IMG/VR virus record: IMGVR_UViG_3300042350_005891
From: an uncultured virus (IMG/VR IMGVR_UViG_3300042350_005891)
Lineage: Duplodnaviria; Heunggongvirae; Uroviricota; Caudoviricetes
Length of the DNA stretch: 20,000 nt
Reading direction: 5' to 3' (one strand)
The notes under the pieces were generated by a model, which searched no databases, was not told where the DNA came from, and saw nothing but the letters and a program-made list of their open reading frames with translations. Below are positions 3,661 to 18,411 of the stretch, one piece after another. Numbering within the stretch: position 1 is the stretch's first letter; each line of letters opens with the position of its first letter. A program made the position numbers and the translations under genes.

Positions 3661-3865
3661 GGACACCTGCCAGACGAAGTGCCTCGTCAGCCCCGGCCTT
3701 GAACACGTTCTGAAGAACGTCGTCCAAGAATCCGGGAGCCAGCTCGAGTTTAAGGTCAGTGACCTGTTCGTTGGCGGCGTCCACCTCTGCGTTGAATGAG
3801 ATCTTGTGGATGCTGTCACCAGCACCCCAGAGGATCTCGCCTTGTACCTTTTGCGTTTTGTTCAT
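3653..3865 (-). CDS. Hypothetical protein, 70 aa
   Basis: Start MNKTQK has an ATGA overlap with the stop at 3862. Confidence 0.6.
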   Translation of the reverse strand: MNKTQKVQGEILWGAGDSIHKISFNAEVDAANEQVTDLKLELAPGFLDDVLQNVFKAGADEALRLAGVHG

Positions 3866-4500
3866 TCTAATACCTCGCTCCAATACCGACTTGTTTTGAA
3901 TCCCTGCAAGTTGTCCCACCAGATGAATCTGGCCGCGGGTGCAGGGATGCCGTGTTTCCGTGACTCCGTCCGCCACTCGTCCTCAAGGGCCAAGTATTCG
4001 GAACGCGTCACGTGCCTGTCTTTCCCATGGATGGACTTCAGAACCCGGCGGTCCAGACATACCACGTCGGACTCACCAAGGTACTTCATCTCCATGTAGA
4101 AACTGGACTTGGCTATCGCCAACCCCGGAACCGTGTCAGCAATCCTGTCACGATACTGCGTAAACGGTTCGTTGGCGTAGCGAACGAACAGATGTGGCTT
4201 GGCCTGAAACATCTGATCGAACTTCCAAATGTTGATCGCCTTCGTTTTCCATAGCCCGGTCTTGGTTTGAAATAACTCAAACTGTAGTTTACCAAGATCA
4301 GACTTCCACTTGCCCCGATCCTCGATGGCGCGGAACGCCTTGACGTTTTGCTTCCAACCAAAGTTCGCAGCCAGGATGGAAAACACCCAGAATCGCCACT
4401 CGTCGTCGCGACTCTTAGGTTTGATTTTTTCCCAGTAGTTGACATAACGCGATACCACGCGGGGTTTGAGCCCGGCGAATACCTCAGCTACCCCACTCAT
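3862..4500 (-). CDS. HhH-GPD superfamily protein resembling Ogg2-type 8-oxoguanine N-glycosylase/DNA lyase (divergent)
   Basis: FSILAANF ~ FCILTANF; RDRIADTVPGLAIAKSSF ~ REFLVKNIKGIGYKEASHF (HhH); VVCLDRRVL ~ VAILDRHIL; TRSEYLALE ~ TRKKYLEIE; start taken at MSGVAE. Confidence 0.7.
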   Translation of the reverse strand: MSGVAEVFAGLKPRVVSRYVNYWEKIKPKSRDDEWRFWVFSILAANFGWKQNVKAFRAIEDRGKWKSDLGKLQFELFQTKTGLWKTKAINIWKFDQMFQAKPHLFVRYANEPFTQYRDRIADTVPGLAIAKSSFYMEMKYLGESDVVCLDRRVLKSIHGKDRHVTRSEYLALEDEWRTESRKHGIPAPAARFIWWDNLQGFKTSRYWSEVLE

Positions 4501-4714
4501 AGAACAGGGGTTTCGTCTCTCCTTCGGGAGACGGATGGAGACGCGACTCTCCACCAAACTTCTCGAGGTCCGCCGTCAGAAGGGCCATGCCCTCCGTGTC
4601 GGATACGTATCCCCGGATACTGTCGTTTTTAATCCCATCTTCAAACGACACCCAAGTGTCGTCCGCGGATAGGAAGGTTTTTGTTTTGGTGTCTACAATA
4701 CAATAACAACTCAT
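4484..4714 (-). CDS. Hypothetical protein, 76 aa
   Basis: ORF coupled on both sides (ATGA at 4711-4714). Confidence 0.6.
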   Translation of the reverse strand: MSCYCIVDTKTKTFLSADDTWVSFEDGIKNDSIRGYVSDTEGMALLTADLEKFGGESRLHPSPEGETKPLFYEWGS

Positions 4715-5061: not shown

Positions 5062-5727
5062 CTAATGCTTCTTGTAATCAATGGCGAATACACTTTTGTC
5101 CCAACACTTTCTACAGTCACCGCACTTGTTTCTTTGCTTCGAAGAAGGGCAGTTGAAGTTGCCGATCATGCTGGCCCCCGACACCGTCAACCCAAGACGC
5201 TGGGCGATACCCACAGGGGCTGGGCCGTCCATCATCAGGGCCGACAGGCGGATGCACAGGTTGTCGGGAACCTCACCACCACCCTCAATGTAGCTGGACA
5301 CAAACGCGTACTCGCGGGTGGGTAGCCAGAAGGAAATGTGGGGCAACATCTTTGCCACGTCCACAATGTTCTTCAGATGCCACACACCTTGAAGATCGCC
5401 GGAATCATGCCAGCGGAAGTGGTGGGTTTTTGTCTTCCCGATTAGGTAAGTTATTGCACTTACCCAAAGCGGATGGGTCAGGGACTTGAAGCGTTTCTCC
5501 ATCGCCTCCACGACGTTGGGGAACACGTAGCGTCCCTTCAGCGCGTAGCAAAACGCGCAGATACTACCCGCCACCTTCCGCATCTTCTGCCCGATAAGGC
5601 AGCGTTTGGCTGGCGTCGAGTATGCGTACCCCGGCATCTTGGAAGGTTTGGAGAGCGTACCGACTATGCTCTCCGCTTCCTTCTTGTTCTTGAACGGCTG
5701 GTCAGCGGGAGTAGATTTTGGATTCAT
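5062..5727 (-). CDS. GP88-family (mycobacteriophage gene product 88-like) radical-SAM-like Fe-S protein
   Basis: LSKPSKMPG, C-x13-C-x2-C-YA.KG.Y, FRWHDSGD, FWLPTRE, NL.IRLS and C-terminal C-x8-C-x2-C-x2-C-W; start taken at MNPKST. Confidence 0.8.
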   Translation of the reverse strand: MNPKSTPADQPFKNKKEAESIVGTLSKPSKMPGYAYSTPAKRCLIGQKMRKVAGSICAFCYALKGRYVFPNVVEAMEKRFKSLTHPLWVSAITYLIGKTKTHHFRWHDSGDLQGVWHLKNIVDVAKMLPHISFWLPTREYAFVSSYIEGGGEVPDNLCIRLSALMMDGPAPVGIAQRLGLTVSGASMIGNFNCPSSKQRNKCGDCRKCWDKSVFAIDYKKH

Positions 5728-5965
5728 GTGCCTTCTGGTCCCAGGGTTTCTTGCCCTCGAACTTCTCCTTCCGCACCATAATCCCAGCGTTGTCGTAGCC
5801 CGTGCACTCGCACCACTCGGGGATAAGAGTCGATGCATCGCGGCCTCGAAGAACCACGCGCTCGATACGTTCCACCTCTTCCTCGTGCCATCCGTATCCG
5901 TAGGGATACTTGGTTCCGGCGATGTCCCGGGCTTGCTTTCCTTTGTATTCAACTTCAGTAATCAT
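5702..5965 (-). CDS. Hypothetical protein, 87 aa
   Basis: AGGAGG SD, ATGA coupling at 5962-5965. Confidence 0.65.
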   Translation of the reverse strand: MITEVEYKGKQARDIAGTKYPYGYGWHEEEVERIERVVLRGRDASTLIPEWCECTGYDNAGIMVRKEKFEGKKPWDQKAHESKIYSR

Positions 5966-6120: not shown

Positions 6121-6155
6121 AAAATACGGGGGCGTGGGAGTTGCCCACGCCCCCG
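6121..6155 (-). terminator. Intrinsic terminator-like hairpin after rIIB
   Basis: 12-bp perfect stem CGGGGGCGTGGG/CCCACGCCCCCG with a 5-nt loop, followed by TATTTT on the - strand. Confidence 0.7.
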
Positions 6156-6162
6156 CCTCCAA

Positions 6163-7017
6163 TTAGTTGTTTCCGGGCAGGGCGTTCAAGAGCCGGTTAG
6201 CCGCCTCACGAATGGCGGTCACCAAGCTGTTGTCACCCGTTGATTCGCTCGCCTCGACGTCATCCTCTTCATAGATGTCGTCTTCGACCGAGTCGTACGT
6301 TTCTGCGTACGCTTTGGGCAGCGGGCCAGTGTAGTGGGCCACGACCTCATAGCGGGCAGTGCGAAGCTTCTGGCATTCGCAGTCGTTGGGAACCGAGACG
6401 ACATCGGCAGGGTTGATCTTGACGATCATTACCTTGCGGTCGCTTCCTCCGAACGTGGTTGCGTATTCCAGCGAGCCGGCGTGGAAACCATACGAACAAC
6501 CGTTGTCGGGATTGTCGTCCACGTCGCGCCGTTGGATGCTCAGCACCGAGCCGACCGTGTTGCTGAACTTGCCGGTGTGGTGGTCGGTGTAGTCGGGTTG
6601 AACCGACTTGTAGGCAAGGAAGTGACCGTCCTCGGTGATGGGCAGATGCTCGTGCTCGAGGAACTTGTACAACTGCGTCCGGCTGTTACGGCTCGGATTG
6701 TTGTAAAGATTCTCGAGGAACCTGGTCAGCGGGGCCACCGGAAGATTGTTGGACATGAAGTCCAGAATCCTCTTGGAGATGACCTCATCAACCGGCTCGC
6801 CACGATGGTGGACAGCACCGTCCCGCACCTCGACGTTGTCGCCAAGGTAAGCGGACATGGCCTGTTGGACATCCATCAGCTTCTCGATGTCAGCTTCGTT
6901 GTCCCCGCGGGCGATCGCCTCGATCACCAGTCTCGCGTTGGCGTGGTCACGGCGCAAGGTGTGAGCCTTGCCGCCGATGACTGCCGTTATACTCTCGTCA
7001 GTTACTATGTATTTCAT
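6163..7017 (-). CDS. rIIB: RIIB-like protein
   Basis: NPS....QLY.FL....LPITEDGHFLAYKSV..DY.D.HTG.F.N..G, VDDNP...CSYGFH, VKINPADVVSVP.D....K.R...YEVV; directly downstream of rIIA; AAAGGA SD. Confidence 0.92.
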   Translation of the reverse strand: MKYIVTDESITAVIGGKAHTLRRDHANARLVIEAIARGDNEADIEKLMDVQQAMSAYLGDNVEVRDGAVHHRGEPVDEVISKRILDFMSNNLPVAPLTRFLENLYNNPSRNSRTQLYKFLEHEHLPITEDGHFLAYKSVQPDYTDHHTGKFSNTVGSVLSIQRRDVDDNPDNGCSYGFHAGSLEYATTFGGSDRKVMIVKINPADVVSVPNDCECQKLRTARYEVVAHYTGPLPKAYAETYDSVEDDIYEEDDVEASESTGDNSLVTAIREAANRLLNALPGNN

Positions 7018-7041
7018 ACTATTGTTCCTTTCGTTTTTGGT

Positions 7042-9396
7042 TTATCGGCCATCACGCGCGGCATCAACGAGCCGCACATATTCGACCGAAGCTTGTGTTG
7101 GGATGGAGAACGCATGGCTCCGCATCATATCGGGAGACTCTGGGTTTCTCACGAAGAGCGGATAGCGATCGACCAGACCCTTGGATGCTTTCTTCAAATC
7201 AAACGATGGCTCGGGAAGAAGATTAAAGAGTGCTTTGTACTCCTTGCTCTCTTCTCCACGGCCAATCTGCCAGACTCCTGTGGGGCGTCTGAGCCACACG
7301 GGAAGTTTCCGTTGCTCTTGTTCGTTTCCACCAAGCATCCGATAAAGGTGTTCCATGTAGACACGGAACGGACTTTTCGGGTCAAGCCCGCTGATGAGGC
7401 TTGGCTTGTTCTTTGAACTCTCAAACCACCTGAACAAGTCCTCCGTCTCAAAGAAGTTACCGGAGTTCTTCCAACCATTACTACCCCAATGGGATGAGCT
7501 GTAGGAGAAGAACACCCGAGCCGCCTTGCGGTCGGCAATCAGTTGTGCCTTGTCTGGGTTGGCAACGAGAAACTCTTTGACATACTTGTCGAGAGCCTCG
7601 TGGAGGCAGATGAGGTTATCGTTAGCTTTGGCTTTCTCGTCGGCAACCTTGACGCCGTAAAGCGCCTTGACCGGAGAGATAGCCTTCAGATACCCCAATG
7701 CATCGTGCAGGGTTTCGTAGTTGCTGTAGAACGCGTCTCTTCCAAGGGTCGCAGACCACTCAAACTTGTTGAGCCGGACAAAGACAGTCTCGCCATCCGG
7801 CGCCTGTCCAAGATTCCAATGGTCGCTGAGCTTGTCTTGATCCGCATAGTCCGAGCGAAGGACAAACAGATTCCCGCGGGAATGCTTTTTGTCCTTCACG
7901 GCGATCACGGGGTCACCGTTCTCATCAACGAATGTCTTCGCTGGCGGCTTGGGCAACGCCTCGATGGAGCGGAACGGCACATGCTTGAACCAAGGCACAT
8001 TGGCCTCGAGCCAGGCTTTGCCACCGTTCTTGCAGGATATGACAAAGACGGTTGCGTCATTGCTGTAATCCGTGGTGTTCGTCATCCAATAACGGAGGCG
8101 GGCTTCACCCGATCCGGTCTTGGTGTCGTTGAGGAACACCTCCATATTTTTGGAGATATGGATTCGGTGGTCGTCACGATCAACGCTTACCCTTGACTTG
8201 CCCCAGCTGCGCTTGCCCATCCGAAGCAGGGTGATGCCATGCTCCTCAAGAATGGTCTTGGGTGTCTTGGTGATCTCGCCCTTGGCGTTCTTCTCAGTCT
8301 CCGCAAGCGGGAGCTCGAAGTCCCCGCTGAGTGGAATACCTTTCCACGTCAGCTTGGGCTTGATCTTCTTGACGACGGCGTCACGGAAGTTGCTTGAGCC
8401 ATACTCACCGTAACGGCGGAACTCGCGGATAACCTGATACGCCGCGATGATGTCGGGCGCACCCTGCACAGCCTTGATAAGCTCGTCTCCGATCGTGTTG
8501 ACGATCGGGGTCAGATGCTTGATCAGACTCTGGATGGTCTTCTGCGAGTATTGCAGGTCCTCACGGGAAGGTGCGATCTGCACATCCCCGAGCTCGACCC
8601 GCACGTAGACGCCAGCGTTGATCAATTCCTTGATCGAGTTGGGTCCGGCGAAGTCGGCTTTCAGCGGATACAAAACCAGCCCCATCTGGAGCCAGCTATT
8701 GTTATCGCCACGGAAAGACCAGTTGCTTCCCTTGACCGAGCCTTCGCTGTAGTCACGCTTGGCCAGCATCTCCTGTTCTTCCGCAGTCGCCGACGCCAGC
8801 TTGGGCTGGACGTCAAAGACCTTGTAGACACGGATGGCCGTCGAGCGAAACCGCTCAACGTCAGTCGGGCGGACGGCGATGGCAATCTCAACCCCGCTTG
8901 GTTCCTTGGTCTTGGTCTCGCTGAGCATCGTGGCTCTGCCCACTTCGCTCTCGTCGATGTAGCAGTTCCAGATGCGCTTGGTTCCATCGTGGATGTCGGT
9001 CACGGTGCAGGAGTCGGTGTACGAGCCATAGGACTTGCAACCGATGCCAAGGCAACCCGTGAACTTATTGCTCGTCCGCTTGCTTGACCCGCCGTAGGAG
9101 CAGAACAAGTCCTTGAACGACTCAACGCCAAGACCCGGACCGAAGTCACGGAGCTTGAAGGTGGGAGCCAAGGACGTGGGAAGCGTCACCTCGAACGGCT
9201 TCTTCTCGTTGCCGTTGAGCATGTGCGCCTCGCACGCATTTGTGCCGTACTCACGGACCACCGCACGGATGGGATCGGAGTAGGCTTTGCGGAGGATGCT
9301 GGCGATGTGACCGAGGTTGGCCGTGTCGATCTTGTAGTCGACCGACTCGCCGCCACCCTCGATGACCGCCGAGTTTCTTGCAGCTGTAATGATCAT
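7042..9396 (-). CDS. rIIA: RIIA-like protein with N-terminal GHKL/Hsp90-type ATPase domain
   Basis: YSDPIRAVVREYGTNACEAH, RDFGPGL, YGGSSKRTSN..TG.LGIGCKS..SYTD, PSREDLQY; paired with rIIB. Confidence 0.92.
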   Translation of the reverse strand: MIITAARNSAVIEGGGESVDYKIDTANLGHIASILRKAYSDPIRAVVREYGTNACEAHMLNGNEKKPFEVTLPTSLAPTFKLRDFGPGLGVESFKDLFCSYGGSSKRTSNKFTGCLGIGCKSYGSYTDSCTVTDIHDGTKRIWNCYIDESEVGRATMLSETKTKEPSGVEIAIAVRPTDVERFRSTAIRVYKVFDVQPKLASATAEEQEMLAKRDYSEGSVKGSNWSFRGDNNSWLQMGLVLYPLKADFAGPNSIKELINAGVYVRVELGDVQIAPSREDLQYSQKTIQSLIKHLTPIVNTIGDELIKAVQGAPDIIAAYQVIREFRRYGEYGSSNFRDAVVKKIKPKLTWKGIPLSGDFELPLAETEKNAKGEITKTPKTILEEHGITLLRMGKRSWGKSRVSVDRDDHRIHISKNMEVFLNDTKTGSGEARLRYWMTNTTDYSNDATVFVISCKNGGKAWLEANVPWFKHVPFRSIEALPKPPAKTFVDENGDPVIAVKDKKHSRGNLFVLRSDYADQDKLSDHWNLGQAPDGETVFVRLNKFEWSATLGRDAFYSNYETLHDALGYLKAISPVKALYGVKVADEKAKANDNLICLHEALDKYVKEFLVANPDKAQLIADRKAARVFFSYSSSHWGSNGWKNSGNFFETEDLFRWFESSKNKPSLISGLDPKSPFRVYMEHLYRMLGGNEQEQRKLPVWLRRPTGVWQIGRGEESKEYKALFNLLPEPSFDLKKASKGLVDRYPLFVRNPESPDMMRSHAFSIPTQASVEYVRLVDAARDGR

Positions 9397-9656
9397 ATGA
9401 GTGAATCTCCTTTCACGTATTCAATGATGAGTGGGCGTAGCTTCTTTCCCCGTTTGACCTTGGGGGCGTCGTTGACCTTGTGCTTGCGCTCCACGACCAC
9501 CGACCAGATGTCGGCATCCGTGTAGTTGGCAAGCGCGATCTCCGCCTCCCGCATGGTGATGTAGAGGGTCGGGTCGACCATCACATTGTCACGGTCATAG
9601 ATCACCAGAGCGTCAGCCTTGGTAACCTTGGGGTGAATCTTGATCGCCTCACTCAC
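9393..9656 (-). CDS. Hypothetical protein, 87 aa
   Basis: Coupled to rIIA by ATGA. Confidence 0.65.
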   Translation of the reverse strand: MSEAIKIHPKVTKADALVIYDRDNVMVDPTLYITMREAEIALANYTDADIWSVVVERKHKVNDAPKVKRGKKLRPLIIEYVKGDSLI

Positions 9657-9966
9657 CGGTTGGAATCCTGTGAGCTGTGAAGTGCCACTCTTCCGACGTC
9701 ACGGTTGACGCCTGGAGAATGTGGTCGACTTCCTCGGGCGACAGCCGCTTGAGGAGATGTTGCCGGAGCAACGGTTTGACGAGCCTTTGCTTGTCGTGTT
9801 CGTCCATGCGAACCTCGAAGACCTGACCCGACCATTCCTTGTTTCCAAGCTTCGCGGATTCGAGGAAGAGAGTGCGATACTCTTTCCGTCGCTCGTTGGA
9901 GAGCTTGAGGTTTTCGGTTGCGCGACCGAAGTCGTCGACAACCTGAGTTGGTATTGTTAGTTCCAT
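9649..9966 (-). CDS. Hypothetical protein, 105 aa
   Basis: Start MELTIP preceded by the AAACCGAAAGGAAC leader/SD. Confidence 0.7.
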   Translation of the reverse strand: MELTIPTQVVDDFGRATENLKLSNERRKEYRTLFLESAKLGNKEWSGQVFEVRMDEHDKQRLVKPLLRQHLLKRLSPEEVDHILQASTVTSEEWHFTAHRIPTGE

Positions 9967-10003
9967 TGTAGTGTTCCTTTCGGTTTTGGTTTCGTTTTGT
10001 TCC

Positions 10004-10050
10004 GCCCACACGGGCAGACCGACACGCCCTCATCGGGCGCGCGGGGTCTG
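10004..10050 (-). ncRNA. Structured cis element, copy A (GAUGA-loop hairpin plus tetraloop hairpin)
   Basis: - strand: CAGAC CCC GCGCGCCC GAUGA GGGCGUGU CG GUCUG CCC GUGU GGGC; same spacing as the copy at 12747-12793; G.U pairs form only on the - strand. Confidence 0.65.
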
Positions 10051-10054
10051 ACCG

Positions 10055-10231
10055 TCAAGACCAAGTAGCTTTGCCTACGGTGTTGCCGTTCTCATCGCGA
10101 ATGGTGTAGGTTTCGCGCTGGTCGTCAGCCACATCATCGGAGAGTTCGCTCAAGATTCGGGACAATTCAAACTCCGGGGCATCCCCGAAAGCCGCATTGT
10201 CCGTATCAATTTCTAATTTGAACTTTGCCAT
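10055..10231 (-). CDS. Small acidic protein, 58 aa (MAKFKLEIDTDNAAFGDAPEFELSRIL...IRDENGNTVGKATWS)
   Basis: Translated manually; GGAGG SD; the DNAAF...E..RIL...D.NGN.VG pattern is recalled from small phage early proteins. Confidence 0.75.
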   Translation of the reverse strand: MAKFKLEIDTDNAAFGDAPEFELSRILSELSDDVADDQRETYTIRDENGNTVGKATWS

Positions 10232-10242
10232 TTGATACCTCC

Positions 10243-10512
10243 TTATTCTGTTGTTGCCATCGGGAACACGAGCTTGCCTTCCTTGGAGGTCGGCTTGTCG
10301 TGTTTGAGTTCATACCAGTAACCAACGATGGTTTTGTTTGCGTCTTCAACGCAACCATCCTTGACTAACTGGAGCCGAAGTCGAGCAGAAACTTTGTTGC
10401 CGAAGAGGTTGGTATTCAACCACTTATAGCATTTCTCCCGGTTCGGAAACTCATAGACTCCGTTTCGGTTTCCACGCGAATCGGAGTGAATGAATACTTT
10501 AAGATTCATCAC
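10243..10512 (-). CDS. Hypothetical protein, 89 aa
   Basis: Coupled ORF in the early block. Confidence 0.6.
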   Translation of the reverse strand: MMNLKVFIHSDSRGNRNGVYEFPNREKCYKWLNTNLFGNKVSARLRLQLVKDGCVEDANKTIVGYWYELKHDKPTSKEGKLVFPMATTE

Positions 10513-10799
10513 TCGTCCGCCAGAAACTCTTCCGCACGTTCGGACGCAATCTCCATCAGCTTGGATTCTGCAATGTTCTGCAAATCCTCGGGGATGGGGA
10601 TTATGTCTTCACCGTTGGGGAGCTCTCCAATGGAAAGATTCTCAACGGTCACCGAATCGGTGGCGAATCGTTCGACATGATCACGGTAACCAATCGGGCC
10701 GACATCCTGTCTGGACAACTCGACGGTGACATCAGCGGTCGCGCCATAACGTGCCCCGTTATACTCAAAGTCAATGTCAAACTGATTTTGGTATGTCAT
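10509..10799 (-). CDS. Highly acidic protein, 96 aa
   Basis: Start MTYQNQF with ATGA overlap at 10796-10799; 22 D/E versus 6 K/R. Confidence 0.7.
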   Translation of the reverse strand: MTYQNQFDIDFEYNGARYGATADVTVELSRQDVGPIGYRDHVERFATDSVTVENLSIGELPNGEDIIPIPEDLQNIAESKLMEIASERAEEFLADE

Positions 10800-11080
10800 A
10801 CGAGCTCCCTGTCCGCGATCATCTGTTTGCGAGCTTCCTGCAAAAGATGCTGGACAACTTCCGCATCCCGCAGGGCCAGGTTCCTGTCGGTTCGCTTGTA
10901 CTTGTAGCCCGTGATTGAGGAGATGATCTCCATGCAACGTTGGGGCGTGGCGAACCGAGTCAACCTCATCCCGCGGTTCAGGGCTTGTAGCCCCTGTTTC
11001 GCGACAAGAAAGCTGATGACCGGAACTCCGTTGAGAGCCCCGCCAGTCGTGTCGATTGTGATGATGCGCTCCTTACTCAT
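10796..11080 (-). CDS. Hypothetical protein, 94 aa
   Basis: AAGGAGGT SD; coupled on both sides. Confidence 0.7.
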   Translation of the reverse strand: MSKERIITIDTTGGALNGVPVISFLVAKQGLQALNRGMRLTRFATPQRCMEIISSITGYKYKRTDRNLALRDAEVVQHLLQEARKQMIADRELV

Positions 11081-11300
11081 TTGTCACCTCCTTGATTTGG
11101 TAGCCGTAAGCCCAATGCCCGTTGGCTAGGTCAAACACACAATGGTCTTTAACCTCAACGGGAATGTGCTCCACGACGATTCCACCTTGTTTCTGTCCAT
11201 CGTTGACAAGCTCGATGCCAACGATCTTGGCTTTCTCCCAAGATTCGTTGCCCCACGAGCCACGCCACCAGACTTGATCGCCTTTGCTGAATAGCTTCAT
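11073..11300 (-). CDS. Hypothetical protein, 75 aa, possibly an SH3-like beta-barrel
   Basis: F.KGD.V.W...W...KAKIVGI...FDL.NG.W.Y..QI pattern; GAGGAGG SD. Confidence 0.65.
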   Translation of the reverse strand: MKLFSKGDQVWWRGSWGNESWEKAKIVGIELVNDGQKQGGIVVEHIPVEVKDHCVFDLANGHWAYGYQIKEVTNE

Positions 11301-11461
11301 TTCTTATCCTCCTCAATGATCGTTAACAACTGCTCGCAGTTTTTAATATGGTCATAAATCTGACCATAAATGTGCTCATCTTCTGGTGAAAGGACGATTG
11401 CCTTGGTCACATCAAGGGTGAGCGTGTTCAGCTTGTTCCTAATCTTGGTAATCGGCTTCAT
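11297..11461 (-). CDS. Hypothetical protein, 54 aa (MKPITKIRNKLNTLTLDV...IIEEDKK)
   Basis: Translated manually; GAGG SD; ATGA coupling to the next gene; fills the gap in the ORF track. Confidence 0.65.
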   Translation of the reverse strand: MKPITKIRNKLNTLTLDVTKAIVLSPEDEHIYGQIYDHIKNCEQLLTIIEEDKK

Positions 11462-11828
11462 TTGACCTCGGCTTTCTGAACGTGGTTTGGATCTTCTCGT
11501 GGATCATCTTGATTGTTTGAATCAAGGCATCAAAGCTGGATTGGCTTACGCATCCAGTCTTGAAGATGTAGTATGGTTCCGGCGAGACGACCCTTCCTGT
11601 ATTTGTCCACTCGTAGGTGGGACGAATCTCAAACATCGCCCTGTAGCCATCAAGGTCGGTGTAATAGAGGCCCACGCTACCAATCTCTGTTTTGGTTGGC
11701 AGACGGTGTGTCCGAAGCACAACCTTCCCGCGGGGAAAGCTGTAAGTGGACGTCCGAGGAATCGGGTCAAGCCCCAGCAAATGCTGGAGCTTGCCCTTCT
11801 CGGCGACGACGGGTAATGGGTAATTCAT
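11439..11828 (-). CDS. Hypothetical protein, 129 aa
   Basis: Coupled ORF (ATGA at 11825-11828). Confidence 0.6.
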   Translation of the reverse strand: MNYPLPVVAEKGKLQHLLGLDPIPRTSTYSFPRGKVVLRTHRLPTKTEIGSVGLYYTDLDGYRAMFEIRPTYEWTNTGRVVSPEPYYIFKTGCVSQSSFDALIQTIKMIHEKIQTTFRKPRSNEADYQD

Positions 11829-12010
11829 TTAACGAATCGAAGCATCAGTGTCCCGATGCCAAGCTCCAGATAAATGATAGTTGAACTTGTGCTCCAGTAG
11901 ATCTCGAATCCGAGAGCTGTCGGAGCAAAGTTAAAGACGAACGTGTTGCTCGCCTTGCTGCGATAGGTGTGGAACCTAGCCCATTCCCAACTGGTGTTAG
12001 TCAACTTCAT
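11825..12010 (-). CDS. Hypothetical protein, about 61 aa
   Basis: GAGGAG SD before MTMKLTNT; exact Met uncertain. Confidence 0.55.
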   Translation of the reverse strand: MKLTNTSWEWARFHTYRSKASNTFVFNFAPTALGFEIYWSTSSTIIYLELGIGTLMLRFVK

Positions 12011-12350
12011 TGTCATTCTCCTCCTCGTTGACCGCGCCATTCAGCACGGCTTGTTTCTGTTTGCGGAAGCGGAACGACCAGTCACCCGACCACGAGCGGA
12101 TGATGGCGATCAGCTGTTCAAAGCTTGGAATCCGGTAAGGACGCTCAAGCTCGGACGCAATGTAGAATCCCCAGGTGTTGTCGGGGGTTCTGACATTGAT
12201 CATCGTCTCGGGCAATACCCACCCTTCGGGGTGGGCGATGCCGTTGACGATGACCGTTCCGGTGTTGATGGTGAACTCAAGACCTTGGCCTTGCTTTCCC
12301 CGTAGCTGGATTTCCTGTCCAGCCCTCCAGATTTTGCTGTTGGGATTCAT
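11997..12350 (-). CDS. Hypothetical protein, 117 aa
   Basis: GGAGG SD, start MNPNSK with ATGA overlap. Confidence 0.65.
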   Translation of the reverse strand: MNPNSKIWRAGQEIQLRGKQGQGLEFTINTGTVIVNGIAHPEGWVLPETMINVRTPDNTWGFYIASELERPYRIPSFEQLIAIIRSWSGDWSFRFRKQKQAVLNGAVNEEENDNEVD

Positions 12351-12487
12351 CGAACGTCCTCCGCAAGCACATTGATGAGCTTGATGAGAAGCATCGCGGA
12401 AGCCACCAGACAGGCGGGGATGGCGATGAACGCCATGCCCAGCTGAAGGAGGATCGTCAGCACGTCCCAGCACTCCTGCGGGGTCAT
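12347..12487 (-). CDS. Small membrane protein, 46 aa
   Basis: MTPQECWD followed by a hydrophobic run of about 30 aa; ATGA coupling on both sides. Confidence 0.6.
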   Translation of the reverse strand: MTPQECWDVLTILLQLGMAFIAIPACLVASAMLLIKLINVLAEDVR

Positions 12488-12711
12488 GCGACCCCCGCTA
12501 GGTTGAGCCGGTTGCCGAAGCCCCGGTTGTTGTGGTTGATCTTGATCATCGCCTCGGCACGCGCTTGCGTGGCGTCGATGACCGCCTCGTTTTCCGTCAG
12601 TCCCTCGCCCTCCCATCCCTCGATCGAGGCGATGTAGTAGCGACCTGTGAGATTCCCGCTGGGGGAAGTCCCTTGGCAGACCGAGATTACGATTTTGTTG
12701 TTGACTTTCAT
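12484..12711 (-). CDS. Hypothetical protein, 75 aa
   Basis: Start MKVNNK after the AACCAAAGGAA leader; Y.ASI.GW.GEG.TE.EAV is loosely HicB-N-like (weak). Confidence 0.65.
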   Translation of the reverse strand: MKVNNKIVISVCQGTSPSGNLTGRYYIASIEGWEGEGLTENEAVIDATQARAEAMIKINHNNRGFGNRLNLAGVA

Positions 12712-12746
12712 TTGTATTCCTTTGGTTAGGGTTATCTGTTTTCTCC

Positions 12747-12793
12747 AGCCTATCGGCCAGACTTGTGCCCCCTCATCGGGGGCACTTGGTCTA
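12747..12793 (-). ncRNA. Structured cis element, copy B (GAUGA-loop hairpin plus tetraloop hairpin)
   Basis: - strand: UAGAC CAA GUGCCCCC GAUGA GGGGGCAC AA GUCUG GCC GAUA GGCU; begins at the stop codon of the upstream gene. Confidence 0.65.
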
Positions 12794-13081
12794 TCCGCAT
12801 AGAACCCAGAACATCCCGAACTGACGGGTCGTTCTGTTGCGTTGGTAAGCTTCGTCACAGGTCATCATCTTTTTGACGACAACCTTGCGGTTGATGTCGG
12901 TCAACGCATACGACCGCTCCAGACCCTGCGCCCTTTCACGGGCGAGCCGGAGACGGCAGTTGCTGTTGGCCATCTTGATGTTCTTGCGCCACTCCTGCTT
13001 GTTGAGCTTGCGGTTGTTGTAGGCGACCAGCCCGTCACGAACCGCATACTTGACGCCGATAAATCCGATCTTTGTGTTCAT
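12791..13081 (-). CDS. Basic hypothetical protein, 96 aa
   Basis: GGAGG SD, ATGA coupling; Arg/Lys-rich. Confidence 0.65.
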   Translation of the reverse strand: MNTKIGFIGVKYAVRDGLVAYNNRKLNKQEWRKNIKMANSNCRLRLARERAQGLERSYALTDINRKVVVKKMMTCDEAYQRNRTTRQFGMFWVLCG

Positions 13082-13432: not shown

Positions 13433-13684
13433 TTATTGCGAGCGACCGCCGGCATCCAGCACATTCCTTAGTGCCGAACGCTGACCGACCCTGCGCGAAA
13501 TTCGTTTGAAGTCTCCAAAGCTTTCGGGGCTCATCACGTTCAAAGCCCCCGCCGTCTTGTCCGAGTAAACCATCGCCCCCTTGAGCTTGGGTTCCGGCCA
13601 GTCAAAGGCGCATCCTTTGCACTTGGAGAACCCAAGGTCGAGGCGCTCCACCTCGACGGGTTGGTTGCAGATGGAGCAGTTCAT
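13433..13684 (-). CDS. DksA/TraR-like C4 zinc-finger protein, 83 aa
   Basis: CSICNQPVEVERLDLGFSKCKGC = CxxC-x3-V-x3-RL-x6-CxxC; ATGA coupling. Confidence 0.65.
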   Translation of the reverse strand: MNCSICNQPVEVERLDLGFSKCKGCAFDWPEPKLKGAMVYSDKTAGALNVMSPESFGDFKRISRRVGQRSALRNVLDAGGRSQ

Positions 13685-14166
13685 CGGTGGCGATGCTCCC
13701 ACAAGGTCTTGATGTGGGACTTGTAAACCTTGGCAACCGAGGGCATCGGGCAGAACCTAGCCTTGGTCACAAGGGATCGGATGGCAGCCCGTATGTTGTC
13801 GTGCCGGAACTTGACGTCCCGCTCAACCCATAGCTTGGACTGGTCGGGCTTGCCCTCCTCCATCCGCCGCCGGTAGGTCTCGGCCTTGGGGGTCACGAGC
13901 CTATGCTTGTAGGTTCCGGTCGAATGGAACCCAAGGGCTTTGGCCGCCTCCGCCACGCTGTCGGCTTTCAACGCCGCCGTCACCCCGTTGATAGTAAGCT
14001 TGGGGTTGGAGGGAACCGGGCTACGCCGTTCCCGTGGGATATGGGGTTTGCGTAGGTCAAGTTGCAGGTCGTCCCACCGACCCGAACCGGACATGGGGTC
14101 ATTGACCTCACGATCCTGTGCCATACGGCGCAGGGTTCCGAAGTCCTGTAGATACGTGTTATTCAC
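13681..14166 (-). CDS. Basic hypothetical protein, 161 aa, first gene of the long early block
   Basis: AAGGAG SD and GTG start; follows the promoter-like motif at 14196-14231. Confidence 0.7.
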   Translation of the reverse strand: MNNTYLQDFGTLRRMAQDREVNDPMSGSGRWDDLQLDLRKPHIPRERRSPVPSNPKLTINGVTAALKADSVAEAAKALGFHSTGTYKHRLVTPKAETYRRRMEEGKPDQSKLWVERDVKFRHDNIRAAIRSLVTKARFCPMPSVAKVYKSHIKTLWEHRHR

Positions 14167-14195: not shown

Positions 14196-14231
14196 ACAAT
14201 CCCTATACGGCTCGCCGTCCCCTCCCCCTTG
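14196..14231 (-). promoter_or_regulatory. Promoter-like motif copy 1: CAAGGGGG-N14-CGTATAGGGATTGT
   Basis: 13/14 identical to 15363-15376 and shares the upstream box; both lie just 5' of the first gene of a - strand unit. Confidence 0.5.
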
Positions 14232-14330: not shown

Positions 14331-14786
14331 ATGGGCAAAGTATTGGCCGTAGATTGGCAAGCCATTGAACGTGACTTCCTTGCAGGGAAGAGTCGAAGCT
14401 TCATTGCATCGACGTATGGTATTAGTCCATTCACGTTGGATGCCCGTTCCCGACGGGGGAAGTGGGTGTTGAAACGTGCACAAGTTACAGAGAAGATCGC
14501 ACAAACGAGACAGGAGGGTGTTGTCCAAGATCAGGTCGGAAGGCAAGCCCGATATCTGTCGAGGATCGCTAATCAAGTCGATCATAGCTTGGATGTCCTC
14601 GAAGCCGAGATGCCGGGAACCAGGAAAGAAGTGCGTGAACAGGTCGAAGTGCTCGAGAAGATCGACCGCATAGCTCGACCTGCATTGGGCTTGGCTTCCA
14701 CGAATCAAGGAAGCAACGGTAAAACGGTGGTGAATCTCGCCATTCTCAGAAGCGAGGAATCCGTGAAGCCTGCGATCGAGGTCTAG
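14331..14786 (+). CDS. Terminase small subunit-like HTH protein
   Basis: DWQAIERDFLAG.S...IASTYGIS..TL..R.RRGKW is the typical N-terminal HTH of TerS-like proteins, followed by helical segments and a VVNL tail; upstream TTGCAT-18-TAAGCT. Confidence 0.65.
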   Translation: MGKVLAVDWQAIERDFLAGKSRSFIASTYGISPFTLDARSRRGKWVLKRAQVTEKIAQTRQEGVVQDQVGRQARYLSRIANQVDHSLDVLEAEMPGTRKEVREQVEVLEKIDRIARPALGLASTNQGSNGKTVVNLAILRSEESVKPAIEV

Positions 14787-14832: not shown

Positions 14833-14873
14833 AAAATAAAAAGGGGAGGGGGGAGGTTTTGCCTCCCCCCTCC
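14833..14873 (-). terminator. Intrinsic terminator, possibly bidirectional
   Basis: 12-bp stem GGAGGGGGGAGG/CCTCCCCCCTCC with a 5-nt loop, then CCTTTTTATTTT on the - strand; lies between convergent genes. Confidence 0.8.
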
Positions 14874-15299: not shown

Positions 15300-15362
15300 T
15301 TTGTTTCGTTTCCTTTCGGTTGTTTCCCCCTCCCCCCTCCCCTATCGGGGAGCGTTGGAGGG

Positions 15363-15399
15363 ACAACCCCTATACGCACCCCCTCCCCCACCCCCCTTG
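15363..15399 (-). promoter_or_regulatory. Promoter-like motif copy 2: CAAGGGGG-N15-CGTATAGGGGTTGT
   Basis: Matches copy 1; AT-rich tract 15421-15454 lies upstream. Confidence 0.5.
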
Positions 15400-15447: not shown

Positions 15448-15852
15448 TTATTTTGGCAGACCAATTGTAACGCCAAGCTTGGTCGCAAACTTCCAGCTCT
15501 CAACAGGCACCCACTGCGGGCAGACAATAAACTTAACGCCGTAGCGGGCGGCTTCCAGGATGCACCGCTTGCAGGGCGGATAGGTTACGGCGAGGAGAAA
15601 CGGTTCGCCGGGAACTGCGTAGGCCAGTGCGTTGGTCTCCGCGTGTACCATAAAATCCCGGCGGTACTCACGATCTGAAGACTCTTTGGCGTCGAGATCA
15701 AAACCGGGAGGGTATCCGTTATATCCAACCCCACAGACTGAGCCGTCTTCTCTAAGAACTGCTGCACCGACCTGGACGAACTTGTCGACGCTGGCGAGTC
15801 TGGCTGCTTCGGCGAGTCGGAGGGCGAGTTCAATCCACTTGAGCTTTGGCAT
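15448..15852 (-). CDS. dCMP deaminase (cytidine/deoxycytidylate deaminase family)
   Basis: S.D...QVGA, GYNG.P.G, HAETNA and PPCKRC zinc motifs. Confidence 0.92.
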   Translation of the reverse strand: MPKLKWIELALRLAEAARLASVDKFVQVGAAVLREDGSVCGVGYNGYPPGFDLDAKESSDREYRRDFMVHAETNALAYAVPGEPFLLAVTYPPCKRCILEAARYGVKFIVCPQWVPVESWKFATKLGVTIGLPK

Positions 15853-16441
15853 AGATCAGGTTTTCGCTGGTCCGGGCTTCCACAATCTCGCTGAAACCCT
15901 GGGCGGTTAAAGTCGAATCAAAAAACTCGCGGTCCTGGTTGTTCCACTCAAGGCAAATCAGGGAGGTCTTGAGGGCGTTTAGGTCCAAAAGCGGCAGGAT
16001 CGTTTTCACCGTGTTTTCGGTATCCAGCGATATAAAGTCGAAAGTCTTGTGGATCGAGGTTTCCAGGAGCATCGGCACCGTGATCATCCTTACCTTGATC
16101 GGGGTAAACGTGGCTCCGCTATTTTTCCACTTCTCAACCCAGGTAGGGTCGGTGGTCGAAACCGCCCAGTCGCCCGAATCGAAGAACTCAACCTCGCCGG
16201 CCTTGTCTCCGACGCATTCCATGACCAGCTGCATCTTGGGATCGCCGTCTATGGCATCGAGGAAAGCCTGGTGAAGCGACGGGGAGGGCTCGACATAGAC
16301 GCCCTTGAAACCCCGCTCCCACAGGGCCCGGGTGTTCGAGAACTTGGTCGGGTGAAAGGCCCCGATGTCCAGGAACGTCCCGGCAGGCTTACCCTCAAAA
16401 TGTTTGAGGATCGTCCGCTCTTCGTCGTTCTGGGAATACAC
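15830..16441 (-). CDS. FkbM-family SAM-dependent methyltransferase
   Basis: YSQNDEE, FLDIGAFHPTKFSNT, GVYVEPSP, FDFISLDTE, LICLE, NLIY; GTG start at 16441. Confidence 0.88.
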   Translation of the reverse strand: MYSQNDEERTILKHFEGKPAGTFLDIGAFHPTKFSNTRALWERGFKGVYVEPSPSLHQAFLDAIDGDPKMQLVMECVGDKAGEVEFFDSGDWAVSTTDPTWVEKWKNSGATFTPIKVRMITVPMLLETSIHKTFDFISLDTENTVKTILPLLDLNALKTSLICLEWNNQDREFFDSTLTAQGFSEIVEARTSENLIYAKAQVD

Positions 16442-16443
16442 GG

Positions 16444-17031
16444 TCAGGTCCCGGGCTGGCAGAGCGTGCCCTGCGAAGTCCAGTTGTAGTGGTGCAGAAC
16501 CTTGTCGATGTGGTGGCTCGTCTTGGCGTGGGGCCAAAGCTGCTGGAGCCAGTAGACGTCCTCACCGTGGTACTGGTCGGAGAACTTGGCTGACTTGGCC
16601 AGGAAGGTGTCCCACACGCAGACCTGGTACGGCGGGCGGGTGATGTCTTTGCCGGTCCAAAGGTCGATCGTGGGGTGGCCGAGCTTGAAAGTCACCTCGG
16701 CCTCCTTGCCGTCGATGCTGGCCTTTTGCCGGAAAGTGATGACATCAACCTGGTGGGCGTCGATCGCCGCGGTGATCTCCTTGATGTAGTCGGGGCTGAC
16801 CCAGTCATCATCGTCGACGTAGGCAAGGTATTTGCCGATCGCGCAGGCAAGTAGCCGCTGGCGTTTGAGGCCCGACGAGCACTTGAGATTGTCGCCGATC
16901 CAGAGGACTTCGACGTCGTCGCGTTTGGCCTCCTCGATCTGGGCGCAGAGGTAGTCGATGAGTTTCTTACACTGCTCGGGCCGCTTGGTGGTGGTTCCGA
17001 CCAGCACGCTGAATGAGGGTTGTTTTGTCAT
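16444..17031 (-). CDS. GT2/GT-A glycosyltransferase
   Basis: SVLVGT, G.KRQ.LL..A.GKYLAYVDDDDWVSPDY, GED..W, I.KVL.HY. Confidence 0.88.
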   Translation of the reverse strand: MTKQPSFSVLVGTTTKRPEQCKKLIDYLCAQIEEAKRDDVEVLWIGDNLKCSSGLKRQRLLACAIGKYLAYVDDDDWVSPDYIKEITAAIDAHQVDVITFRQKASIDGKEAEVTFKLGHPTIDLWTGKDITRPPYQVCVWDTFLAKSAKFSDQYHGEDVYWLQQLWPHAKTSHHIDKVLHHYNWTSQGTLCQPGT

Positions 17032-17717
17032 GTGAGTAGGTGTGCGTTCCTTTTGTTGTAGATGGCCTCGCCATACTGGTAGGCCGGTTTGGAGTTTGCC
17101 CGGTCGTAGACTTCGTCCGAAGGCTTGCCGGTCAAAAAGGGATGGTCGTGGACAAAGCCGGGGATGATCGGAACATCCACACGCTGGCCGAACCTGCGGG
17201 TGCGGAGCGACAGGTCGGTGTCGACATACACATGCCGGTACTCGGGGTGGTAGAAGTTGCCGTTAAGCTCGTAGAGCTTGCGGGTGATCAGGGGAAAGCA
17301 TACCAGGTCGAAATTAGGCGGGCGTCCGGGATGGTCGGGGAGCGAGAGCATTTTGGGGTCGTCCAGGTGCGGGCCCATGACCTCGCGGAACCAGGCATCC
17401 CAGTGGTAGGGACCGTACCAGTCGTCGGCCATCTGGAAGAGCAGGTCGCCCCTGGCTTTGCCGGCCATCATGTTCATCGCCATGCAAAGAGTACCGCCTT
17501 CCTGGGAGACGTCCCAGGTCGGGGGCGGCACAACCACATGGTCGAACGCCTTCAACTCCTCGCAGGACTTGTCGTCCTCGTCGACTCCAAAGATCCACTC
17601 GATCAGGTCGGGACGGTGCGCCATCTCCATCCAGTTGCTTTTCCGGGCCAACGCTTCCTTGCATCGGCGCGTCGGGTGGAGGACCGAGATTACTATGTCA
17701 GGACTTTTGCTGCTCAC
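17028..17717 (-). CDS. GT-A fold glycosyltransferase
   Basis: ISVLHPTR, GVDEDD, N......GDLLFQMADD, FYHPEYRHVYVDTD, HDHP. Confidence 0.82.
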   Translation of the reverse strand: MSSKSPDIVISVLHPTRRCKEALARKSNWMEMAHRPDLIEWIFGVDEDDKSCEELKAFDHVVVPPPTWDVSQEGGTLCMAMNMMAGKARGDLLFQMADDWYGPYHWDAWFREVMGPHLDDPKMLSLPDHPGRPPNFDLVCFPLITRKLYELNGNFYHPEYRHVYVDTDLSLRTRRFGQRVDVPIIPGFVHDHPFLTGKPSDEVYDRANSKPAYQYGEAIYNKRNAHLLT

Positions 17718-18411
17718 TTACCGGATTCTCCTTGAGGTGCTTGAAGAACTTGTCCACATCGGCCCAGTAGTTGAAGGTTCCGATATGCCCGACGGTCAGG
17801 GTCGGATCGATGAAGATCTTGATGCCGTGGTTGACCAGCTTCTCGCAAACGATGAAGTCCTCCGACAAAAGCTCGCGGCCCTGCCAAATGCCGATCTCAA
17901 AGACGTTGGAACCGACGACCCCCTGGATCTCGTACTTCTTTTCGTTCTCCCAAAGGGTCGTGTAGGCCCGGCGGCTCATCCGAAGGAAGCCTGTCCCAAG
18001 CCGGCGCACCTCGATGAGTCCTTTGTCATTGGGCTCATAGGGCTTGTCCTTGAAAAGCTGGAAGTTGAACTGGACGTTGTCCGGGATCTTCTTTCGGCAG
18101 GCCGAGCCGACCACGTCGACGTCATGCTTGAGCAACTGGCGGATCGCATCGGGTTCCCAGACCATGTCGTTGTCGATCCAGATAATGTCGTCGGGCTTGC
18201 GCTTGTATGCCTCGTTGAGAAGCGTGTTACGAGCCAACGGTAGCAGGGACTGGTTTTCAAGAATCTCGGATTCGAGGGCGATGCCTTCGGCCAGCAGTTC
18301 GATCGTCGAGGTGAGGAGCGAGCGGTGAAACCCTGCGGCCACCATGCCGCCGTAAGCCGGGGTCAGCACCATCACGCTACGCATGTTCATTCCTAGGTCG
18401 GGTATGTTCAT
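17698..18411 (-). CDS. GT-A fold glycosyltransferase (phage TPxYGG type)
   Basis: TPAYGG, SLLPLARN.L, WIDNDMVW.P, GTGFL.MSR, LSEDF..C, IDP.....HIG; start at ATGA 18408-18411. Confidence 0.85.
   Translation of the reverse strand: MNIPDLGMNMRSVMVLTPAYGGMVAAGFHRSLLTSTIELLAEGIALESEILENQSLLPLARNTLLNEAYKRKPDDIIWIDNDMVWEPDAIRQLLKHDVDVVGSACRKKIPDNVQFNFQLFKDKPYEPNDKGLIEVRRLGTGFLRMSRRAYTTLWENEKKYEIQGVVGSNVFEIGIWQGRELLSEDFIVCEKLVNHGIKIFIDPTLTVGHIGTFNYWADVDKFFKHLKENPVSEQQKS

What the first reader, a model, noticed from the sequence alone, without database searches (positions are those of the whole stretch)
10004..12793. Repeated covarying two-hairpin element with a GAUGA pentaloop between early genes (candidate new cis-regulatory RNA)
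Seen: two intergenic copies on the transcribed - strand have identical architecture. A (10004-10050) is CAGAC-CCC-GCGCGCCC-GAUGA-GGGCGUGU-CG-GUCUG-CCC-GUGU-GGGC-GGAACAAAAC. B (12747-12793) is UAGAC-CAA-GUGCCCCC-GAUGA-GGGGGCAC-AA-GUCUG-GCC-GAUA-GGCU-GGAGAAAAC. Substitutions in the 8-bp stem keep pairing (C-G to U-A, G-C to C-G, G.U to G-C) while the loop, the AGAC/GUCUG outer stem and all spacings are invariant. G.U wobbles form only on the - strand. Neither copy has a U-tract, and each sits just after a stop codon and before an A/C-rich leader with an AAAGGA SD. Established: lambdoid boxB elements are GC stems with GNRA-like pentaloops (lambda GAAGA, P22 GACAA with the third base extruded), and T7 early mRNA is cut at intergenic RNase III hairpins. 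Inference: GA(U)GA could adopt the P22-type fold, so this may be a protein-binding antitermination, processing or stability element. The Arg/Lys-rich ORFs 12791..13081 and 13681..14166 are candidate binders.
Basis: partly seen in the sequence, partly recalled or inferred. Interest (0 to 1): 0.8.

Follow-up and report, generated by a model that had tools for sequence, protein, structure and literature searches.

The report
RNase III-type phage mRNA cutting signal
Two copies of a small folded RNA between the early genes of an uncultured phage look like the host-enzyme cutting sites of phage T7, with one extra feature: the predicted cut would free a protective hairpin exactly at the front of the next gene's message; this is untested and belongs to a known kind of signal.

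Summary
Both copies are real and belong to a phage-only RNA family: 55 distinct sequences in two unrelated phage groups (~70 kb, two copies; ~38 kb, one copy). 7 of 8 upper-stem pairs covary and there is no Rfam hit. The GAUGA loop is not conserved (8 of 76 contexts, 35 different tops), so the boxB-like reading fails, and the proposed binder ORFs are missing from 3 of 3 carrier genomes of the 38-kb group. The element is a ~20-bp irregular hairpin whose lower 3' strand can instead pair downstream as a 7-bp hairpin. In the register of T7 RNase III sites (8-bp stem, cut 3 nt below it; all five T7 early hairpins fit), the predicted cut falls exactly on the first base of that hairpin: 76 of 76 contexts here, and likewise in three sibling elements of other sequence. 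Best reading (0.72): a host RNase III site that splits the early polycistronic mRNA and leaves both products hairpin-protected. No RNA end was observed. The scan noted this kind of element before on other phage DNA. Verdict: new variant of a known kind.

The parts
10010..10055 (-). Copy A, long irregular hairpin (4 bp, 1x1 loop, 5 bp, 3x2 loop, 8 bp, GAUGA loop): predicted RNase III substrate
   Evidence: fold, z -5.85; family covariation
10018..10019 (-). Copy A, predicted single cut on the 3' strand, between 10019 and 10018 (inferred, not observed)
   Evidence: register from PMC1540722 numbering and T7 control
10001..10018 (-). Copy A, alternative 7-bp hairpin; would be the 5'-terminal stem-loop of the downstream mRNA after the cut
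9967..10000 (-). Copy A, unstructured A/C-rich leader with SD-like AAAGGA (9975-9980)
   Evidence: sequence; fold
9649..9966 (-). Gene downstream of copy A, 105 aa, no family assigned
10055..10231 (-). Gene upstream of copy A, 58 aa, phrog_9027 (unknown function); stop codon abuts the hairpin
12754..12797 (-). Copy B, long irregular hairpin (3 bp, 1x1 loop, 5 bp, 3x2 loop, 8 bp, GAUGA loop): predicted RNase III substrate
   Evidence: z -6.09
12761..12762 (-). Copy B, predicted single cut on the 3' strand, between 12762 and 12761 (inferred, not observed)
12744..12761 (-). Copy B, alternative 7-bp hairpin with GAUA loop; would cap the 5' end of the downstream mRNA
12712..12743 (-). Copy B, A/C-rich leader with SD-like AAAGGA (12718-12723)
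   Evidence: sequence
12484..12711 (-). Gene downstream of copy B, 75 aa, no family assigned
12791..13081 (-). Gene upstream of copy B, 96 aa, basic; its stop codon lies inside the hairpin's 5' arm; not needed for the element

Best explanation
Each copy is a processing signal for the host's RNase III in the phage's early polycistronic mRNA, built to flip fold when cut. Shown: the RNA structure, its covariation, its place between a stop codon and an A-rich leader, and two mutually exclusive pairings of the GUCUG strand. Inferred step 1: in the intact transcript the ~20-bp irregular hairpin forms first. Inferred step 2: RNase III nicks only the 3' strand, 3 nt below the 8-bp upper stem, because the internal loop blocks the other strand. 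Inferred step 3: the upstream product keeps the upper stem at its 3' end, while the freed downstream strand refolds into a 7-bp hairpin that starts at its very first nucleotide. Inferred outcome: small early-gene messages protected at both ends, with an open ribosome-binding leader.
For: Register: PMC1540722 numbering and all 5 T7 early hairpins (8 of 8 pairs, cut 3 nt below) give the same geometry. R1.1 position is from PMC8708148; the other four positions are recalled. At offset +3 the downstream fragment has no unpaired 5' base in 76 of 76 contexts, against 0 of 76 at +2. Sibling elements E3, E4, E5 of other sequence give fractions 0.96 of 24, 0.89 of 18 and 5 of 5 at +3, and at most 0.04 at +2. 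E. coli rules: proximal-box position 2 is A-U/U-A in 70 of 76; distal-box position 2 is U.G in 55 of 76; proximal-box position 4 is G-C/C-G in 0 of 123. One family top is letter-identical to that of T7 R0.3 (5 of 76) and another differs from R1.1 by one base. The long hairpin dominates the intact fold in 74 of 76 (0.79 and 0.85 in the window). Three copies found by the model, outside the search pattern, carry one G-to-A change that keeps both alternative helices paired. A related hairpin without any upstream cutting stem sits just after the early promoter in 11 of 42 islands. No phage RNase III in 0 of 5 genomes searched, so the enzyme would be the host's.
Against: No RNA end was seen: only assembled contigs were available. 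Window copy A has C-G at proximal-box position 2, an antideterminant for the E. coli enzyme. Both window copies have C-G at distal-box position 2 (as do T7 R0.5 and R1.3) and a 5-nt top, one base shorter than the shortest T7 top and below the minimal helix of PMC1540722. Siblings fit the E. coli rules less well (position 2 A-U/U-A in 19 of 24 and 10 of 18; U.G in 2 of 24 and 2 of 18). In E3 the downstream hairpin already dominates the uncut fold in 21 of 24. E3-E5 resemble each other, so they are perhaps one independent family rather than three. Invariant core columns were fixed by my search pattern. The host and its RNase III are unknown.
Confidence: 0.72

Rival explanations
1. An uncut conformational switch or binding site for a host factor (RNase III binding without cleavage, another protein, or a three-way junction) that controls translation or stability of the next gene.
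For: Two exclusive folds are both conserved. The lower stem and second hairpin are nearly invariant in sequence, more than RNase III should need. A three-way junction closed by columns 8:66 and 9:65 is also paired in 55 of 55.
Against: Neither fold touches the SD or start codon, which lie more than 20 nt downstream, and no terminator follows. Columns 8 and 9 pair equally well in the long hairpin (55 of 55 each). The +3 register in elements of other sequence is not predicted by this model.
Confidence: 0.13
2. Mainly a DNA-level homology anchor for swapping early genes, like the PeSL cassettes of T4-type phages; the RNA fold is secondary.
For: 14 upstream and 14 downstream gene families occur in 36 combinations around 81 copies. 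The element is patchy (16 of 42 islands) and is shared by two unrelated phage groups.
Against: Compensatory changes in 7 of 8 stem pairs (13 stem variants) reduce DNA homology while keeping RNA pairing. G.U pairs favour the transcribed strand. 38-kb genomes carry one copy. No promoter or terminator lies in the element and no tyrosine recombinase in 0 of 5 genomes. I did not test whether swaps are more frequent here than at plain junctions. A side role in recombination is compatible with the best explanation.
Confidence: 0.07
3. A new small self-cleaving ribozyme.
For: Same slot as phage ribozymes (general knowledge); conserved core next to a free variable stem.
Against: No Rfam ribozyme hit. 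Almost every conserved base is explained by Watson-Crick or wobble pairing in one or both folds, leaving no conserved unpaired catalytic set. Siblings of other sequence share only the geometry.
Confidence: 0.04
4. A boxB-like pentaloop bound by a phage Arg-rich protein for antitermination.
For: Both window copies, and copy A in several relatives, have the same pentaloop on a G+C-rich stem (8 of 76 contexts).
Against: Orthologous copy B has other 7-nt loops in G001 and G002; 35 different tops in the family; candidate binders absent from 3 of 3 carriers of the 38-kb group.
Confidence: 0.03

Closest known systems
RNase III processing sites of the phage T7 early mRNA (R0.3, R0.5, R1, R1.1, R1.3)
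   Same: Intergenic in a host-transcribed early operon that includes anti-restriction genes; 8-bp core stem with short top, internal loop below it, A-U at proximal-box position 2, frequent U.G at distal-box position 2; one top identical to R0.3.
   Different: T7 downstream products mostly lack a strong 5'-terminal hairpin (-0.3, -5.8, -0.8, -6.8, -0.3 kcal/mol against -10 to -14 here; R1.1 has one starting at base 2). No sequence similarity in the lower stem. Unrelated phages, unknown host, cleavage not shown.
Staphylococcus aureus cspA 5' UTR (PMC3386247, passages read)
   Same: [quoted passage not shown]
   Different: A single chromosomal leader, not a repeated intercistronic phage cassette; there the cut also relieves structure at the ribosome-binding site, whereas here the SD is open in both states.
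PeSL cassettes of T4-type phages RB49 and phi1 (PMC2839356, abstract only)
   Same: Repeated intergenic stem-loop cassettes in variable early regions, with genes shuffled around them.
   Different: PeSLs hold a sigma70-like promoter and act as terminators; this element has neither signature.
Lambdoid boxB hairpins (lambda, P22); features recalled, search listing only
   Same: G+C-rich stem with a GA-starting pentaloop in the two window copies.
   Different: Loop not conserved in the family, stem far longer, no N-like protein shared by carriers.

Membership tests
T7-type RNase III processing site | Irregular hairpin of about two helical turns with an internal loop | tested here: met
   A 4+5+8 bp, B 3+5+8 bp with 1x1 and 3x2 loops; long-hairpin model 89% of cells paired in 55 sequences
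T7-type RNase III processing site | A-U/U-A at proximal-box position 2 (E. coli rule, PMC1540722) | tested here: inconclusive
   Met in 70 of 76 family contexts and in window copy B; not met in window copy A (C-G)
T7-type RNase III processing site | No G-C/C-G pair next to the scissile bond (proximal-box position 4) | tested here: met
   0 of 123 contexts of four elements have one
T7-type RNase III processing site | Distal box with U.G at position 2 | tested here: inconclusive
   55 of 76 family contexts; C-G in both window copies, as in T7 R0.5 and R1.3
T7-type RNase III processing site | At least 11 bp between cut and terminal loop for the E. coli enzyme | tested here: inconclusive
   34 of 76 contexts have the 8-nt top of R1.1; T7 R0.3 and R1 have 6-nt tops; the window copies have 5 nt, one shorter
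T7-type RNase III processing site | Intergenic in an early polycistronic transcript made by host polymerase | tested here: inconclusive
   Intergenic and co-oriented in both groups. A TTGACC-17-TAGTAT promoter heads the 38-kb island; no consensus promoter was found for the window's operon
T7-type RNase III processing site | RNase III-dependent cleavage at the site | not testable with these tools
   Only contigs from two metatranscriptomes with 5% word share; no end information
boxB antitermination hairpin | Conserved GNRA-like pentaloop | tested here: not met
   35 tops of 5-12 nt; pentaloop in 8 of 76
boxB antitermination hairpin | Cognate Arg-rich protein in all carriers | tested here: not met
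   Both candidates absent from 3 of 3 complete 38-kb carriers; other binders not searched
Known Rfam families (ribozymes, riboswitches, leaders) | Covariance-model hit at gathering score | tested here: not met
   no hit near any gathering score; none on the window copies
PeSL cassette | Sigma70 promoter plus terminator stem-loop | tested here: not met
   neither at 10001-10055 nor at 12744-12797
Integron attC site | Cognate tyrosine recombinase and GTT-type core | tested here: not met
   PF00589 in 0 of 5 genomes, 14 of 14 controls; core reads GTC; attC features recalled

The most novel reading that the evidence does not exclude
The cassette is a translation-sensing processing switch. In 71 of 85 copies with a called upstream gene, the stop codon lies within 7 nt before the AGAC arm or inside it. 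A ribosome terminating there would melt the lower stem and flip the RNA into the downstream-hairpin state, which RNase III should not cut. Cutting and release of the next cistron would then depend on whether the upstream gene is being translated, and the portable cassette would have carried this control between two unrelated phage lineages. Against: 14 of 85 copies have the stop 10-83 nt away.
Probability: 0.15. Interest if true: 0.7.

Novelty: new variant of a known kind. Interest (0 to 1): 0.42.

Why it matters
If right, it shows T7-style dicing of early mRNA in two abundant uncultured phage lineages (584 IMG/VR stretches encode the 38-kb group's terminase), with an added design: one nick yields a 3' hairpin on the upstream message and a flush 5' hairpin on the downstream one. 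That gives a base-exact, cheap prediction (ends at 10018 and 12761), a compact candidate part for insulating and stabilising cistrons in synthetic operons, and a marker for slots that hold anti-defence genes (ArdC follows one copy). It does not open a new class of RNA: RNase III sites between phage early genes and cut-induced 5' hairpins are each known.

Tried and rejected
No whole genome is held for the window; relatives G001 and G002 served instead. A loop-anchored scan of viral contigs gave 84 stretches, of which 80 were examined and only the two copy-A orthologues were real; this first suggested that the loop is the wrong anchor. Protein-anchored scans with rIIA and the 105-aa protein found only G001. 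One search used a mis-registered structure string and is disregarded; replace it. Cellular genomes: 74 exact-pattern stretches in GTDB representatives scored at most 25 bits against 66-97 for real copies, so no host-chromosome copy was found; this scan used one strict pattern. blastn against cultured phages gave only a chance 40-nt hit. Reads: two metatranscriptomes with 5% word share, contigs only; one contig covers most of the element, which shows presence in an RNA library and nothing about ends, strand or level. Hammerhead, twister, pistol, HDV-like, kink-turn, c-di-GMP-I, ZTP, N4-type promoter hairpin, REP and CRISPR-repeat mimic were considered by eye from recalled consensus features and dropped; only the Rfam scans are a real test. 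A pseudoknot between the 5' strand and the tetraloop showed no covariation by eye in alignment A1. Atlas searches of the two downstream proteins gave only hypothetical clusters. An Ocr-like downstream protein had no PDB hit and only a weak pairwise match to T7 gp0.3. Literature: the element was not found in Fremin et al. 2023 (PMC10690425) supplementary files 3-6 by motif, nor in file 4 by four contig names. The alignment archives and PDFs of that paper could not be read, so it may be among their 10,000 candidates. Searches (listings only) showed no paper on this element.
Full report
Observation. The two copies are at the stated places on the - strand. The shared pattern matches twice and never in 200 shuffles. 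The window is part of a phage: terminase small subunit at 14331-14786, rIIA and rIIB at 6163-9396, and a run of small co-oriented genes from 14166 downward. Rfam gave no hit on either copy, even at E up to 10.

Family. No genome is held for the window. Two related ~70-kb phages carry copy A unchanged (54/54 in G002, flanks about 76%) and copy B with the same stems but different 7-nt loops. Of 183 matches examined, window copies included, 91 had both an 8-bp stem at the right spacing and an A-rich tail, 91 had neither and 1 had the stem only; the 92 were dropped. The 91 include duplicates and reduce to 55 distinct sequences. On their alignment all 18 tested pairs are kept in every row, 7 of 8 upper-stem pairs change on both sides, and 0 of 500 shuffles reach the covariation score. 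The rows are related and fall into 13 stem variants of about five main types, so the number of independent events is small. The invariant columns were fixed by my pattern and carry no weight by themselves.

Distribution. A covariance model scores real copies at 66-97 bits and the 74 pattern hits in GTDB genomes at 25 bits or less. Carriers are two unrelated phage groups. Among 21 carrier records, the 15 of the ~38-kb group have one strong copy and the ~70-kb records two (one 81-kb record four, one a truncated second). In an unbiased set picked by terminase, 19 of 80 loci and 16 of 42 complete early islands of the 38-kb group carry it. In the 70-kb group 9 of 11 loci picked by small terminase carry it; the other two hold little DNA on the early side. 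In both groups it lies in an early block divergent from the small terminase gene, between a stop codon and an A-rich leader; 14 upstream and 14 downstream gene families occur in 36 combinations around 81 copies. One downstream gene is ArdC (PF08401).

The loop is not the point. GAUGA is 8 of 76 distinct contexts among 35 tops of 5-12 nt. The two basic ORFs proposed as binders are absent from 3 of 3 complete 38-kb carriers. The boxB reading therefore fails.

Anatomy. The outer stem is longer than first described, giving a ~20-bp irregular hairpin. Its lower 3' strand can instead pair downstream as a 7-bp hairpin, so the two folds exclude each other. In the intact RNA the long hairpin wins (74 of 76). 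Three copies found by the model, outside the pattern, have a single G-to-A change that keeps both helices paired, which is independent evidence that both folds are selected.

Siblings. The 38-kb islands hold three more intergenic elements of other sequence and the same build (E3 in 28, E4 in 20, E5 in 5 of 42 islands; at least one of the four types in 34 of 42). A related tetraloop hairpin with no upstream stem (E0, 11 of 42) sits just behind the early promoter. E3-E5 resemble one another and may be one family. A geometry-only scan, built from these elements and so partly circular, gave 31 hits in five sequences; 11 had an A-rich tail and 10 of those were the known elements, against 6 hits and 0 with a tail in 289 kb of resampled control.

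RNase III register. Pertzev and Nicholson (PMC1540722; passages and the first part of Results read) define a proximal and a distal box on a 34-nt minimal substrate. From their numbering I infer that the 3'-strand cut lies 3 nt below an 8-bp core whose top pair is distal-box position 2. As a control, all five T7 early hairpins pair 8 of 8 in this register. The R1.1 position, nt 5887, is from PMC8708148 (passages) and has a +-1 ambiguity of convention; the other four positions are recalled. Applied here, the cut falls on the first base of the alternative hairpin in 76 of 76 contexts (0 of 76 one base earlier), and in 0.96 of 24, 0.89 of 18 and 5 of 5 sibling contexts. Position 2 of the proximal box is A-U/U-A in 70 of 76, and in the G+C-rich stem variants it is often the only A-U pair. 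The pair next to the cut is never G-C (0 of 123). No phage RNase III was found in 0 of 5 genomes, with 8 of 14 controls positive.

Against. No RNA end was observed. Window copy A breaks the position-2 rule. Both window copies have a top one base shorter than any T7 site and below the E. coli minimum. Siblings follow the E. coli base rules less well, and in E3 the downstream hairpin already dominates before any cut (21 of 24). The host is unknown, and RNase III orthologues differ in specificity (PMC6121014, passages).

Mechanism. Most likely a single host RNase III nick leaves a 3' hairpin on the upstream message, as PMC1540722 and PMC6993053 (passages) describe for single cuts, and a flush 5' hairpin on the downstream one. 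Stabilisation by a 5'-terminal stem-loop is established (title of Emory et al. 1992 seen in the reference list of PMC7509114), and an RNase III cut that yields such a hairpin is shown for S. aureus cspA (PMC3386247, passages). All functional steps here are inferred. Confidence 0.72. Rivals: uncut switch or binding site 0.13, recombination anchor 0.07, ribozyme 0.04, boxB 0.03.

Novelty. It works like T7's early RNase III sites; membership rests on geometry and is unproven without cleavage. The addition is the cut-released 5' hairpin, weak or absent in at least three of five T7 sites. The family is not in Rfam and was not found in the paper searches or in the readable supplements of Fremin 2023; that paper's alignment files could not be read and may hold it. 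I reached this reading (notes) before seeing that the scan had noted the same kind of element on a look-alike genome and on other phages; those notes are unchecked and are not counted as support. Verdict: real, new variant of a known kind, interest 0.42.

Noticed in passing
window 14196-14228 and 15363-15395: Two 33-nt G-rich look-alike stretches (repeat D8) lie upstream of the two - strand genes at 14166 and 15299 and share a TATAGG-containing end; possibly a promoter type not seen by the sigma70 scan.
   Followed up: no
window 15318-15360 (-): A GAUA-capped hairpin (z -3.5) precedes the A-rich leader of the 139-aa gene, resembling the stand-alone 5' hairpin E0 of the 38-kb phages.
   Followed up: partly
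L354:3500-5700 (38-kb phage G007): Short early island on the strand opposite to nearly all other genes, next to the small terminase gene, with a consensus-like promoter and three processing-type elements (E1, E3, E4); gene content differs widely between relatives.
   Followed up: yes
L188:1582-1965 (-): Acidic 128-aa protein behind the element with a weak pairwise match to T7 gp0.3/Ocr (33% over 58 aa, E 4e-4 for the single comparison; no PDB hit): possible DNA mimic.
   Followed up: partly
L186:1611-2459 (+): ArdC anti-restriction protein (PF08401 and PF18818) directly behind the element.
   Followed up: partly
38-kb islands, e.g. L364, L375, L393: A short motif beginning AAACGGC recurs one to three times between genes near the end of the early island; function unexamined.
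   Followed up: no
window 10055-10231 versus L105, L134, L135: Some 70-kb relatives lack the 58-aa gene and have a different stem variant of the element directly after the preceding gene, in front of the same downstream gene: gene gain or loss with exchange of the element.
   Followed up: partly
window 3862-4557, 5062-5850, 15448-18411 (-): 8-oxoguanine glycosylase-like gene (PF22175), GP88 (PF17338), dCMP deaminase, and a methyltransferase plus three glycosyltransferase-like genes.
   Followed up: no
window 6126-6156 and 14845-14873: Strong terminator-like hairpins; the second reads as a terminator on both strands between convergent genes.
   Followed up: no
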